Assembly: GCF_964213995.1 (NCBI RefSeq)
Contig: NC_135828.1
Location: forward strand, 16,244,001-16,308,000
Direction: 5' to 3'
Origin: Mustelus asterias
Lineage: Eukaryota
Length of the DNA stretch: 64,000 nt
Positions within the stretch are counted from its first letter, which is position 1. Every line of letters starts with the position of its first letter. Shown piece by piece: positions 1,824 through 60,417 of the stretch. The notes below the pieces were generated by a model. It was not told the DNA's origin. It saw only the letters and a program-made list of their open reading frames with translations, and did no database searches. The position numbers and the translations under genes were made by a program.

Positions 1824-2104
1824 TGTCACAAGTAGGCTTACATTAACACTGCAGTGAAGTTACTGTGAAAATCCCCTAGTCGCCACACTCCGACTACTGT
1901 TTGGGTAACACTGAGGGAGAATTTAGCATGGCCAATGCATCTAACCAGCACATCTTTTGGACTGTGGGAGGAAACCAGAGCACCTGGAAGAAACCCATGC
2001 AGGCATGGGGAGAATGCGCAGACTGCATAGACAGTCACCTAAGCCGGGAATCGAACCTGGGTCCCTGGTGCTGTGAGGCAGCAGTGCTAACCGCTACACC
2101 ACCT
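1824..2104 (-). mobile_element. HE1-like tRNA SINE, tail type 2
   Basis: tRNA-like head (GGTTAGCACTGCTGCCTCAC...GGTTCGATTCC) plus tail ending CATTGCAGTGTTAATGTAAGCCTACTTGTGAC-like. Confidence 0.85.
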
Positions 2105-2109
2105 TGGGA

Positions 2110-3732: not shown

Positions 3733-3886
3733 GATGTGGAGATGCCGGCGTTGGACTGGGGTAAACACAGTAAGAGTTTTAACAACACCAGGTTAAAGTC
3801 CAACAGGTTTATTTGTTATTTATTTGTTTATTTATTAATGGCATTTGCTACCAAATAAACCTGTTGGACTTTAACCTGGCGTTGTT
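3733..3886. mobile_element. Penelope-like terminal-repeat fragment with inverted arm, 12-bp TSD
   Basis: 35-bp inverted arms at 3781-3815 and 3852-3886; direct repeat AGAACCATTCTT at 3721-3732 and 3887-3898; same family at 16525-16652 and 50584-50767. Confidence 0.75.
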
Positions 3887-4152
3887 AGAACCATTCTTCA
3901 CAGTGGATCAAGCTGCTGAACTCTCTCCAGCCTCAGACATAGAGAGTGGCTGAAGGAACAGAGGTCTATTGGCACCTCTGAGTAATGACCCACCCTCTAC
4001 AAATTAAACAGGTGTAAAGAGGTACAAATCACAAACTAAACCCTATCTTATTATTCACTGCTTTCTTTAAAGAGTCCTTGTTTAAACAGATGTCAATGAC
4101 ATCGTTAATACGGTTATCTCCAGGGAATTATTGACCAGATTAATTAAAACTG

Positions 4153-4683: not shown

Positions 4684-5646
4684 TTTAATTTTTTTAAATA
4701 CTTTTCCAATTCAATCAAATCAAATCCAATTCAGAGTCTCAACAAGTTGAGACATTTCAGATCCAGGCTGGCAAGACAAGGTCTACACTCCTGTCTTGGG
4801 CCTGATCTACATGAGCCAAGCTGATTGGAGTAGGTGCAGACTCACCTCCTCCAAAGCTTGATCTCATTTGCATCTTAGCCAAAAGGCCGAGATGCCGCTT
4901 TTAAAAATTGCTTCAAATGAAGCTAAAATGTAACCTAATGACCTCAACCAAGCGCAGCCTGTCCACACTACACTTTTTTAAATACTTTTCCAATTCAATG
5001 AAATCAAGTCCAATTCAGAGTCTCAACAAGTTGAGACATTTCCGATCCAAGCTGACAAGACAGGGTCTGCAACCCAATACCCTGTCTTGGGCCTGATCTA
5101 CATGAGCCAAGCTGATTGGAGGAGGTGCAGGTCTTCCTCCTCCAAGGCTTGATCTCATTTGCATCTTAGCCAAAAGGCCGAGATGCCGCTCTAAAAAATT
5201 GCTTCATATGAAAATGAAGCTTAAATGCAACCTAATGACCTCAACCAAGTGCAGCATCCGATCCACACTACACTTGTTTTTTAAAATTTTTAAAAATACT
5301 TTTCCAATTCAATCAAATCAAATCCAATTCAGAGTCTCAACAAGTTGAGACATTTCAGATCCAGGCTGACAAGACAGGGCGAGCGACCAAACCACCCTGT
5401 CCTGGGCCCGATCTACATGAGCCAAGTTGATTGGAGAAGGGGGAGGTTCCTCCTCCAAGACTTGAGCTCATTTGCATCTTAGCCAAAAGGCCGAGATGCC
5501 GCTTTTAAAAATTGCTTCATATGAAACATATGAAGCTTCAATGTAACCCAATGACCTCAACCAAGTGCAGCATCCCATCCATACTACACCTGATCTTAGC
5601 CAAAAGGTCGAAGCGATCCACACTACACTTGATCCTAGCCAAAGGC
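4684..5646 (-). mobile_element. Nested tandem array of three U2 snRNA-headed, A-tailed structured retroelements (SINEU-like)
   Basis: Units at 4684-4973, 4974-5276 and 5277-5617, plus a head remnant at 5618-5646. 5581-5617 reads ATCGCTTCGACCTTTTGGCTAAGATCAGGTGTAGTAT on the minus strand, matching U2 snRNA nt 1-39 with 3 changes. Each unit ends in an A-rich tail. CCACACTACACTTG is duplicated at 5263-5276 and 5618-5631. Confidence 0.8.
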
Positions 5647-20955: not shown

Positions 20956-22110
20956 ATAGAACATAGAACATAGAACAGTACAGCACAGAACAGGCCCTTC
21001 GGCCCACGATGTTGTGCCGAGCTTTATCTGAAACCAAGATCAAGCTATCCCACTCCCTATCATCCTGGTGTGCTCCATGTGCCTATCCAATAACCGCTTA
21101 AATGTTCCTAAAGTGTCTGACTCCACTATCACTGCAGGCAGTCCATTCCACACCCCAATCACTCTCTGCATAAAGAACCTACCTCTGATACCCTTCCTAT
21201 ATCTCCCACCATGAACCCTATAGTTATGCCCCCTTGTAATAGCTCCATCCACCCGAGGAAATAGTCTTTGAACGTTCACTCTATCTATCCCCTTCATCAT
21301 TTTATAAACCTCTATTAAGTCTCCCCTCAGCCTCCTCCGCTCCAGAGAGAACAGCCCTAGCTCCCTCAACCTTTCCTCATAAGACCTACCCTCCAAACCA
21401 GGCAGCATCCTGGTAAATCTCCTCTGCACTCTTTCCAGCGCTTCCACATCCTTCTTATAGTGAGGTGACCAGAACTGCACGCAATATTCCAAATGCGGTC
21501 TCACCAAGGTCCTGTACAGTTGCAGCATAACCCCACGGCTCTTAAACTCCAAACCCCTGTTCATAAAAGCTAACACACTATAGGCCTTCTTCACAGCTCT
21601 ATCCACTTGAGTGGCAACCTTTAGAGATCTGTGGATATGGACCCCAAGATCTCTCTGTTCCTCCACAGTCTTCAGAACCCTACCTTTGACCCTGTAATCC
21701 ACATTTAAATTAGTCCTACCAAAATGAATCACCTCACATTTATCAGGGTTAAACTCCATTTGCCATTTTTCAGCCCAGCTTTGCATCCTATCTATGTCTC
21801 TTTGCAGCCTACAACAGCCCTCCACCTCATCCACTACTCCACCAATCTTGGTGTCATCAGCAAATTTACTGATCCACCCTTCAGCCCCCTCCTCTAAGTC
21901 ATTAATAAAAATCACAAAGAGCAGAGGACCAAGCACTGATCCCTGTGGCACTCCGCTAGCAACCTGCCTCCAGTCCGAAAATTTTCCATCGACCACCACC
22001 CTCTGTCTTCGATCAGATAGCCAGTTACCTATCCAATCAGCCAACTTTCCCTCTATCCCACACCTCCTTACTTTCATCATAAGCCGACCATGGGGGACCT
22101 TATCAAAGAC
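20956..22110 (-). mobile_element. Young 5'-truncated CR1 LINE with an intact RT C-terminal reading frame
   Basis: Open frame from about FDKVPH (~22110) to the stop at 21040, with SGVPQGSVLGP and KFADDTK motifs; (TTCTATG)n tail at 20956-20977. The first ~58 aa of the listed ORF come from flanking DNA. Confidence 0.92.
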
Positions 22111-22590
22111 CTTATAAAGAGGACCCTCAAAGGAGAAGCTTCCACTCCCCCTTGCCTGACATCGGCCCACCCAGTAACAGTTGCTGGCTTCTTGGCGTGG
22201 GCCTCCCCTTGCCCTAGATAAAATAGCAGTGGGGGCAGGATGAGGCACGTAAGTAGCCATTAAATACCCCCATAAATTGAGAGACAAACTGGGGGTGTGT
22301 GGCCAACTGCATGATGTATTTTACAAAACCACTGGCAGGGGAAGGTAAAAGCCAGCCTTGTTCTTAACCAGGTCCTCAATTCCAGTGGTCAGTTGACTTT
22401 TGGGTTTAACTTGTTCAGTCTGATTGTTGGAATCAAGTTGATGCTGTGGCCTTTTGGTCTGGAGCTTTCTATCCGGAGTGGAAATAATGGAGTGTATTCC
22501 CTTTTTAAACAAAATAAGCCACACAAACATGGAATAGTGTAGTAGTGAGATGGATTCATACTAAAACCTTTGCAAACAGGTTTGCAAAAT

Positions 22591-43514: not shown

Positions 43515-44135
43515 CACCTCCAGGGCTGCGGATGGCGCTGTGTGTGGAGCCCGGGTAATGCCTCCAGTACTGCGGGTGGCGCTGTGTCTGGAGTCCGGGA
43601 TCCGGTTTATGCGGAGCTGCGGGTGGCGCTGTGTCTGGAGTCCGGGCAGTACCTCCTGTACTGCAGGAGGTGCTGTTTCGGGAGTCAAGGCAGTACCTCC
43701 AGTGCTGCGGGTGGCGCTGTGTCGGGAGTCAAGGCAGTATCTCCAGTGCTGCGGGTGGCGCTGTGTCAGGAGTCAAGGCAGTACATCCAGTGCTGCGGGT
43801 GGCGCTGTGTCCGGAGTCCGCACAGTACCTCCAGGGCTGCGGGTGGCGCTGTGTCGGGAGTCAAGGCAGTACCTCCAACGCTGCGGGTGGCGCTGTGTCT
43901 GGAGTCAAGGCAGTACCTCCAGGGCTACGGGTGGCGCTGTGTCTGGAGTCCAGGCAATACCTCCAGTGCTGCGGGTGGCGCTGTGTCGGGAGTCAATACA
44001 GTACCTCCAGTGTTGCGGGTGGCGCTGTGTCTGGAGTCCGAACAGTACCTCCAGTGCTGCGGGTGGCGCTGTGTCTGGAGTCCGGGCAGTGCCTCCCAGT
44101 GCTGCGGGTGGCGCTGTGGGTGGAGTCCGGGCTCC
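43515..44135. repeat. GC-rich 44-bp minisatellite, 14 copies
   Basis: Unit approximately GCGGGTGGCGCTGTGTCTGGAGTC(AA/CG)GGCAGTACCTCCAGTGCT; starts at 43528, 43572, 43619, 43663, then every 44 bp to 44059, and 44104. Confidence 0.95.
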
Positions 44136-59675: not shown

Positions 59676-59729
59676 TGTACTTCCACCCAGTTGTTTGACC
59701 GTTTGTGTTTTCTATTTTACAGCTAAAAC

Positions 59730-60298
59730 ATGACGGGGAGTCAGTTTACTATCAGACGCTGGACCAGCAAGCATGTGGCCAAGTGGCTCAAGGAGGAAGG
59801 CTTCAGCGAATATGTTGATCTTCTATGTAATAAGCACAGACTGGATGGCGTTGCCTTGTTAACTTTGACCGAAAACGATTTACGCTGCCCGCCTTTGGAA
59901 CTGAAAGTGTTGGGTGATATTAAAAGGCTTATGGTATCTATTCGGAAGCTGCAAAAACAGCATAAGGATATCTTGGCGGAGATGGGATACGCCAGCGAGG
60001 AATGCGTTGTTGCACACCCTGGTAATTCATCGCAAAGCAAAGACTGTCAGTGTAACGGTGTGGATCATTCCAGGAACAGTGGCGGTTCTAGCGGAGACTT
60101 GAGAACTGAACAGTATCAGAATGGTAAATACTACAAATACCAAGCACGAAGACTTGACCCAGAGTTTTGGAAGACAGCTCTGAGTTCTATTTATGTATTT
60201 GTAGTCTTTGGGTTTACATCGATTGTTATGGTAGTAGTTCATGAGCGTGTGCCTGACATGCAAACTTATCCACCCCTACCAGACATATTCCTGGATAG
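59730..60298 (+). CDS. SAMD8: SAMD8 / sphingomyelin synthase-related protein (SMSr), first coding exon (SAM domain and first TM segment); gene continues beyond the window
   Basis: Acceptor TTTTACAG at 59722, ATG at 59730, donor AG|GTAAGT at 60299; [31 protein letters not shown]...KVLGDIKRL and [19 protein letters not shown] match vertebrate SAMD8; synteny with DUSP13. Confidence 0.96.
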
Positions 60299-60417
60299 GT
60301 AAGTATTAAGTTAATGTGACTTTGTTTTATACTTTTAAAATAACTTTTCTACTAATAGAGTAGTTATTTCTCGACGCTCAGATACAGCTACCTTCGCAAA
60401 CATGAGAAGCTATTGTG

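What the first reader, a model, noticed from the sequence alone, without database searches (positions are those of the whole stretch)
4684..5646. U2 snRNA-headed retroelement that appears to insert into its own U2 head (self-targeting SINEU-like array)
Seen, read on the minus strand: a head remnant GCCTTTGGCTAGGATCAAGTGTAGTGTGG (U2 nt ~12-37), then unit 3 (U2 nt 1-39 head, ~300-nt body, A-rich tail), then CAAGTGTAGTGTGG + body + A tail (unit 2), then GTGTAGTGTGG + body + A tail (unit 1). Unit 3 is flanked by an exact 14-bp direct repeat (5263-5276 = 5618-5631). It extends to 18 bp through ATCG, which is also the U2 5' end. Both internal tail junctions fall at U2 nt ~27-30, just before the branch-point-recognition sequence GUAGUA. 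Established: A tail plus TSD is the signature of target-primed reverse transcription. U1/U2-headed SINEs (SINEU) were described in crocodilians, and Keno (Tx1 clade) and Utopia LINEs target U2 genes. Inference: this is a non-autonomous element mobilised by a U2-sequence-specific LINE. Because it carries the target in its own head, it builds nested arrays away from U2 loci. I do not know of such a family in sharks. As I recall, Keno and Utopia junctions lie near U2 nt 37-38, so the partner LINE may differ.
Basis: partly seen in the sequence, partly recalled or inferred. Interest (0 to 1): 0.9.

Follow-up and report, generated by a model that had tools for sequence, protein, structure and literature searches.

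The report
Shark SINE that hijacks U2 genes
This is a nest of three copies of a small jumping element, with over 4,000 copies in what is probably a shark genome, that begins with the first 38 letters of the U2 splicing RNA, lands unusually often beside or inside its own older copies and inside real U2 genes, and likely borrows those genes' promoter to be copied.

Summary
Observation confirmed. The three units belong to different subfamilies of a dispersed, U2-headed, A-tailed retroelement with at least 4,447 copies. They are nested insertions, not a tandem duplication. About 90% insert at unrelated sites with 6-20 bp target-site duplications (TSDs). Head bias is still real: 392 tails sit just upstream of another U2 head, reusing the older copy's left TSD. 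Six tails sit exactly at U2 nt 39, the Keno/Utopia site. The likely partner is a U2-headed Tx1 LINE that uses the same site and TSD; one U2 gene holds SINE-LINE-SINE in tandem. Seven SINE copies of five head types are fused to U2 upstream DNA. Inference: source copies sit inside U2 genes and use the external U2 promoter, a candidate answer to how SINEU-type elements are transcribed. No expression data were obtained. Nine paper searches found no shark SINEU; Repbase and Dfam could not be searched. The scan earlier noted an analogous spliced-leader-headed system in another genome (not tested here). Verdict: new variant of SINEU.

The parts
5618..5646 (-). 5'-truncated U2 head (nt 12-37) of the founding copy (unit 1), split from its body by two later insertions
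   Evidence: U2 numbering; continuation of unit 1 matches the head type seen in L065
5618..5631 (-). left TSD copy for units 3 and 2 (14 bp; 18 bp with ATCG)
5277..5617 (-). unit 3: full-length copy starting at U2 +1, last to insert
   Evidence: Rfam U2 partial match 5441-5617, 25 bits, below cut-off
5580..5617 (-). U2 snRNA nt 1-38 head of unit 3
5547..5573 (-). segment complementary to the head; predicted to pair with U2 nt ~13-38, including the branch-point-recognition bases
   Evidence: folds of a full-length copy and of the alignment
5476..5496 (-). second, internal U2 nt 7-27 copy, forming a hairpin
5320..5378 (-). 3' block resembling U2 nt 39-~100 (by way of an older whole-U2-like element) and, more weakly, the LINE 3' UTR
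   Evidence: (73% to L011); not detected by Rfam on its own
5277..5300 (-). A-rich tail of unit 3
5263..5276 (-). right TSD copy of unit 3, also left TSD copy of unit 2
4975..5262 (-). unit 2: 5'-truncated copy joined at head homology, second to insert, with a 13-bp TSD
4963..4975 (-). right TSD copy of unit 2 (13 bp)
4684..4962 (-). body and A tail of unit 1, the founding copy; its subfamily features are shared with dispersed copies L181 and L065

Best explanation
The array is three separate insertions of a U2-headed, A-tailed short retroelement (at least 4,447 copies) that is likely mobilised by a U2-headed Tx1 LINE of Keno type, and whose source copies likely sit inside U2 genes and are transcribed from the U2 promoter. 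Steps: (1) SHOWN: the SINE and the LINE both occur at U2 nt 38/39 of real U2 genes with the same TSD, and some SINE copies there are fused seamlessly to U2 nt 1-38 and its upstream DNA. (2) INFERRED: such a gene makes an RNA U2(1-38)-body-A tract-rest of U2, so the 'head' is co-transcribed target and no internal promoter is needed. (3) INFERRED: LINE ORF2 primes on the A tract. (4) SHOWN: about 90% of copies land at unrelated sites, where they have no U2 upstream DNA; INFERRED: these are mostly dead ends. (5) SHOWN: about 9% land just upstream of an existing U2 head, reusing that copy's left TSD, and 0.5% inside the head at nt ~23-31. INFERRED: the endonuclease or RNP is drawn to U2 5' sequence; the in-head class is helped by the tail pairing at AA 29-30 and by homologous 5' joining. 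(6) INFERRED: rare hits at U2 nt 39 renew the source genes. Window order: unit 1, then unit 2 into its head, then unit 3 at the same site.
For: Copy number: 4,447 exact 3' anchors against 18 for the control. TSDs and varied flanks in the 30 best loci. The three units carry different subfamily features, and unit 2 is closer to dispersed copies (up to 96%) than to its neighbours (87-89%). Junction classes of 4,447: 392 before another head (control 0); 27 at head nt 23-31, 23 real, against 4 at a body control site, none followed by element body; 6 at U2 nt 39 (control 0). Parallel nested arrays at L105 and L103. In 5 tandem cases read in full, 4 show the spacer matching the downstream unit's 3' flank between two complete units (L062, L065, L068, L074) and L066 gives only a 4-bp match. 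In L065 the 5' and middle TSD copies agree and the 3' copy differs, so the new copy went in upstream and later. LINE: ZCCHC3-RBD and zf-CCHC in ORF1; APE, RT and zf-RVT in ORF2; own U2 head; 23 of 1,356 3' ends at U2 nt 39. One canonical U2 gene holds SINE-TSD-LINE-TSD-SINE-TSD. SINE fused to U2 upstream DNA: 6 variant-type plus 1 canonical, 5 head types. Two of these carry a 30-35 nt upstream piece inside TSD-bounded inserts. No tRNA, 5S or 7SL match in the element, and it has internal T4-T6 runs.
Against: No expression data. Only 2 of the 7 upstream-fused copies lie in true U2 clusters (C21, C24), and both look damaged (an internal deletion; several substitutions), so no intact master was found. 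The other five could be dispersed U2 retrocopies hit later, or template switches onto read-through U2 RNA. SINE-LINE 3' similarity is patchy (59 identical of 127 columns). 15 of the 23 LINE hits at nt 39 are one amplified 8,035-bp unit. The LINE copies read have frameshifts. The RT was not placed on a tree with named Keno sequences. How the head attracts insertions is not shown.
Confidence: 0.68

Rival explanations
1. Ordinary SINEU: the head was added once by template switching to U2 snRNA, copies are transcribed by read-through from any flanking promoter, and the U2-resident copies are passive by-products of the Tx1 partner's residual preference.
For: Kojima 2015 (PMC4494074, text parts 2-4) proposes template switching and flanking transcription for SINEU. 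An extra U2 5' fragment caps the insert in L181. The two cluster-resident copies look damaged. The element itself is a mosaic of U2 pieces.
Against: Five head types are fused to the same variant-U2 upstream DNA. The head ends exactly at the Keno cut, nt 38/39. The longest dispersed heads read start at U2 +1. Composite retrocopies carry the rest of U2 after the tail.
Confidence: 0.25
2. One reading: a strictly U2-sequence-specific element that mainly inserts into its own head at nt 27-30.
For: 23 real in-head junctions against none confirmed at a body control site; parallel nested arrays.
Against: This class is 0.5% of tails. 61 of 71 sampled 3' ends are followed by no U2 head. The site used in U2 genes is nt 39.
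Confidence: 0.03
3. The arrays arise by local tandem duplication (unequal exchange between TSDs or heads), or by several RNAs copied in one insertion event.
For: L116/L117 repeat the same odd tail, and L101 has the same head type in both units. Reuse of the exact old nick is what re-priming in one event would give.
Against: The window units differ in subfamily markers shared with dispersed copies. Downstream units in L062, L065, L066 and L068 are of a more divergent type, and TSD copies differ in a time-ordered way in L065.
Confidence: 0.04

Closest known systems
SINEU (SINEU-1/-2/-3) of crocodilians with Tx1-Mar LINEs (Kojima 2015, PMC4494074; text parts 1-4 of 5 read, figures and supplements not seen)
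   Same: snRNA-derived head, poly(A) tail, under 500 bp, internal oligo-T, repeated U2 pieces, Tx1 partner that also carries a U2 head, tandem copies sandwiching a TSD.
   Different: The paper reports SINEU only in crocodilians, with a Mariner-N4 target and no shared LINE 3' end. Here the host is likely a chondrichthyan, the preferred sites are U2 nt 39 and the element's own head, and copies are fused to U2 upstream DNA. Sequence homology to SINEU-1 bodies was not tested.
Keno (Tx1 clade, U2-specific LINE; known to me through PMC4494074, PMC4640811 section 6 and PMC6136364 passages; the original 2004 paper was not seen)
   Same: The partner LINE has an APE endonuclease and the same 3' flank starting at U2 nt 39; its TSD in L176 equals the 20-bp target quoted in PMC6136364.
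   Different: Specificity is relaxed (23 of 1,356 3' ends at the site); it has its own U2 head and carries a 4,400-copy SINE.
Utopia (PMC4640811, section 6 and passages)
   Same: Same U2 site; 20-bp TSDs in reptiles; tandem insertions in U2 genes.
   Different: Utopia has a restriction-like endonuclease; the partner here has an APE domain.
R2 elements co-transcribed with 28S rRNA genes (as cited in PMC4494074 discussion)
   Same: Dependence on the target gene's promoter (inferred here).
   Different: Here a non-autonomous element would use a Pol II snRNA promoter while spreading genome-wide.

Membership tests
SINEU | 5' head derived from U1 or U2 snRNA | tested here: met
   U2 nt 1-38 matches this genome's U2 genes
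SINEU | Short (<500 bp), high-copy, shared structure rather than independent chimeras | tested here: met
   about 330-370 nt, 4,447 3' anchors, shared body
SINEU | 3' poly(A) tail and TSDs | tested here: met
SINEU | No Pol III head; internal oligo-T | tested here: met
   no tRNA/5S/7SL Rfam match in 4684-5646; T runs visible
SINEU | Shares target preference with a Tx1 LINE | tested here: met
   same site and TSD in one U2 gene; mobilisation itself not assayed
SINEU-1/-2/-3 (named crocodilian families) | Sequence homology of the body to the crocodilian consensus | not testable with these tools
   no Repbase or Dfam access; paper figures not held
SINEU-1/-2 | U1-derived segment | tested here: inconclusive
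   weak alignment to this genome's U1; the segment is better explained as antisense to the head
Keno (partner LINE) | Tx1-type ORF1/ORF2 with APE endonuclease | tested here: met
Keno (partner LINE) | 3' flank begins at U2 nt 39 | tested here: met
   23 junctions
Keno (partner LINE) | Insertion specific to U2 genes | tested here: not met
   23 of 1,356 exact 3' anchors
Keno (partner LINE) | RT phylogeny within the Keno lineage | not tested
   no named Keno protein among the hits; BAC82621.1 is labelled only 'pol-like protein', 36% identical; no tree was built
Utopia (partner LINE) | Restriction-like endonuclease | tested here: not met
   APE domain at the ORF2 N-terminus

The most novel reading that the evidence does not exclude
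A promoterless SINE that lives as a parasite of U2 genes. Its 'head' is the co-transcribed first 38 nt of the host gene, its masters are U2 genes with an insert at the Keno site, and the partner LINE's leftover U2 preference renews the masters while scattering thousands of dead copies and stacking new ones in front of old heads. This would explain how snRNA-headed SINEs are transcribed and why they recur.
Probability: 0.5. Interest if true: 0.82.

Novelty: new variant of a known kind. Interest (0 to 1): 0.64.

Why it matters
Kojima 2015 names SINEU transcription as an open question and found SINEU only in crocodilians. This family extends snRNA-headed SINEs to a likely chondrichthyan. It supplies concrete loci where the element is fused to U2 upstream DNA, which makes the promoter question directly testable, and it identifies a partner LINE at the same site. 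It also shows a retroelement reusing the exact old nick in front of its own earlier copies in about 9% of insertions, a targeting rule for a semi-specific Tx1 endonuclease. The many subfamilies could serve as insertion markers for shark phylogeny.

Tried and rejected
U1 origin of the middle segment: aligned to this genome's U1, weak; folding shows it is antisense to the head. Rfam does not see U2 in the 3' block alone, so that link rests on the older U2-like element in L011 (49.3 bits). Covariation support for the fold is thin: 2 of 84 pairs have a two-sided change in 17 hand-picked copies, so selection on structure is not shown despite z = -10.75. An intact master in the amplified 8,035-bp U2+LINE unit: none, it holds no SINE. 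No read-laying result was obtained, so insertion polymorphism and orthologous empty sites remain untested. Scripts were unavailable, so later counts come from pattern searches and reading alignments by eye, and no tree was built. Earlier scan notes by sequence and in this genome: none. Literature: 9 searches found no snRNA-headed SINE in sharks; subscription papers, Repbase Reports and Dfam are outside the library, and supplements of the cited papers were not opened.

Full report
OBSERVATION. The minus strand shows a head remnant (5646-5618), then three A-tailed units. The 14-bp repeat is exact at two places and has one mismatch at a third; 0 of 100 shuffles reach three matches. Its GTGTAGTGTGG variant is nearly private to this locus among 186 fetched loci. 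The units differ in indels and loop sequences that each shares with dispersed copies, and unit 2 is 93-96% identical to copies on other contigs but 87-89% to its neighbours. The simplest history is unit 1, then unit 2 into its head with a 13-bp TSD and a homologous 5' join, then unit 3 at the same site with a 14-18 bp TSD that includes unit 2's first bases.

FAMILY. The window lies in a 3.68-Gb genome. A 15-base 3' anchor has 4,447 exact matches against 18 for the reversed control; older subfamilies that lack the anchor are not counted (examples). In the 30 best loci the copies have variably truncated U2 heads, A-rich tails and, in many, TSDs of about 6-19 bp of unrelated sequence (read by eye). 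The host is likely a chondrichthyan: the partner LINE's closest named relatives, at 72%, are a cluster holding a skate protein and a whale shark protein.

ANATOMY. U2 nt 1-38 (against the genome's own U2), a variable loop, a segment complementary to the head, a palindromic hairpin, a second U2 nt 7-27 copy, two similar long hairpins with variable loops, a 3' block, and the tail. One full-length copy folds at z = -10.75, but only 2 of 84 pairs show two-sided change in 17 copies. The 3' block aligns to U2 nt 39-~100 through an older element in L011 that scores 49.3 bits on the U2 model; Rfam does not detect it alone. It also resembles the LINE 3' UTR in patches. There is no tRNA, 5S or 7SL match.

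WHERE IT INSERTS. I aligned 71 3' ends from contig 1 taken in positional order (70 loci; the last 27 of the 100 listed places were not fetched). One is followed by head nt 29-38, nine by a short spacer and another head, and 61 by no U2 head. Genome-wide, of 4,447: 392 precede a U2 head within 8-38 nt (control 0). Even taking the rough 135,653 U2-like candidates as heads, my arithmetic gives about 2.5 expected. 27 match the in-head pattern. I dropped 2 not followed by element body (L104, L125) and 2 that are spacer-plus-truncated-head cases (L112, L115), leaving 23 junctions at 17 loci; at least one pair (L116/L117) looks like a local duplication. A body control gave 4 hits, none followed by element body. 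Six tails run straight into U2 nt 39 (control 0), and two more with mismatches were seen. L105 and L103 repeat the window's three-unit nesting. In tandem pairs the spacer is the downstream copy's TSD starting at the same base (L039/40, L044/45, L048-50; L062, L065, L068, L074, and only 4 bp in L066). The downstream unit is often of a more divergent type, and in L065 the TSD copies show that the newcomer went in upstream, later. In the sample no upstream same-strand neighbour lacking the anchor was found with an internal motif. Kojima 2015 reports TSD-sandwiched tandems for SINEU-3, but there the target is a specific transposon; here the first site is arbitrary.

PARTNER. At the end of a canonical U2 array on C24 one gene reads: U2 upstream DNA, U2 1-38, SINE, TSD, 5'-truncated LINE, TSD, SINE, TSD, rest of U2. 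The LINE has ORF1 with ZCCHC3-type RNA-binding domains and a zinc knuckle, and ORF2 with APE endonuclease, RT and zf-RVT. Full-length copies begin with their own U2 head (nt 5-35 or 1-33) after a TSD of U2 nt 39-58 or 39-52. Of 1,356 exact 3' anchors, 23 abut U2 nt 39, 15 of them in one amplified 8,035-bp unit. PMC4640811 section 6 places the Utopia and Keno 3' flank at nt 39, and a passage in PMC6136364 quotes the same 20-bp target for Keno. So it works like a relaxed Keno; membership by phylogeny is untested. LINE tails also sit directly upstream of SINE heads away from U2 genes (L115, L119).

SOURCE GENES. A second U2 cluster on C21 has a 448-bp unit with an intact variant U2 (175.5 bits), several LINE insertions and one SINE fused seamlessly at nt 38/39. 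Six SINE copies follow the variant upstream sequence and one follows the canonical one, covering five head types. On C14 a 1.65-kb composite of variant-U2 spacer, SINEs and U2 remainder is bounded by an 18-bp TSD. On C7 a SINE with 35 nt of the upstream spacer is bounded by a 13-bp TSD. On C8 and C1 similar pieces occur. The two U2 types share a short upstream motif near -55 to -41; calling it a PSE is recalled knowledge, not tested. These loci fit RNA made from U2 units that carry the SINE. They also fit later hits on U2 retrocopies, or template switching at head homology. The two cluster-resident copies look damaged, and no expression data were obtained.

MECHANISM. See Best explanation. Shown: family size, nesting, junction classes, shared site and TSD with the LINE, and upstream fusions. 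Inferred: promoter use, mobilisation by this LINE, and why heads attract insertions. The head-antisense hairpin would hide the branch-point-recognition bases, which might keep the RNA from disturbing splicing; this is speculation from the fold alone.

COMPARISON AND NOVELTY. It meets the SINEU definition on the features I could test (PMC4494074, text parts 1-4 of 5). That paper found no SINEU outside crocodilians and leaves transcription open. Passages in PMC5381603, PMC5786205 and PMC4758252 add no shark case, and nine searches found none; Repbase and Dfam were not searchable, so a catalogue entry cannot be excluded. An earlier scan note describes an analogous spliced-leader-headed LINE/SINE system in another genome, a lead only. 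Verdict: new variant of a known kind, interest 0.64.

Noticed in passing
L011:629-838 (-): An older A-tailed element resembling a whole, diverged U2 with internal duplications (49.3 bits on RF00004); possibly a second, SINEU-3-like family and donor of the 3' block.
   Followed up: partly
G000:C24:44.82-44.93 Mb (L176): At least 15 tandem 8,035-bp units, each with an intact U2 gene and a Tx1 LINE inserted at U2 nt 39; the unit read has its ORF2 in pieces.
   Followed up: partly
G000:C21:28.05-28.08 Mb (L160, L178): Second U2 cluster with a variant U2 and a 448-bp unit, interrupted by several LINE insertions in both orientations.
   Followed up: partly
L003, L009, L020, L062, L087, L091: Copies in opposite orientation close to or inside another copy's head; in L020 the TSD appears to be head nt ~33-47 on the other strand.
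   Followed up: partly
window 3772-3895: Palindromic AT-rich repeat giving sub-threshold miRNA-family hits; the same repeat occurs in the canonical U2 spacer. Probably a MITE-like element.
   Followed up: no
window 2036-2108 (-): Sub-threshold tRNA-like match (27.5 bits), probably the head of a tRNA-derived SINE.
   Followed up: no
window 59727-60302 (+): Exon-like ORF with a SAM domain; recalled resemblance to SAMD8/SMSr, not tested.
   Followed up: partly
window 21040-22320 (-): Reverse transcriptase fragment (RVT_1) of another LINE.
   Followed up: partly
window 43516-44132: 44-bp minisatellite, about 14 copies.
   Followed up: no
L159:6957-9015 (+): ORFs that look like an LTR retrotransposon gag-protease and RT-RNase H next to the U2 array end.
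   Followed up: no
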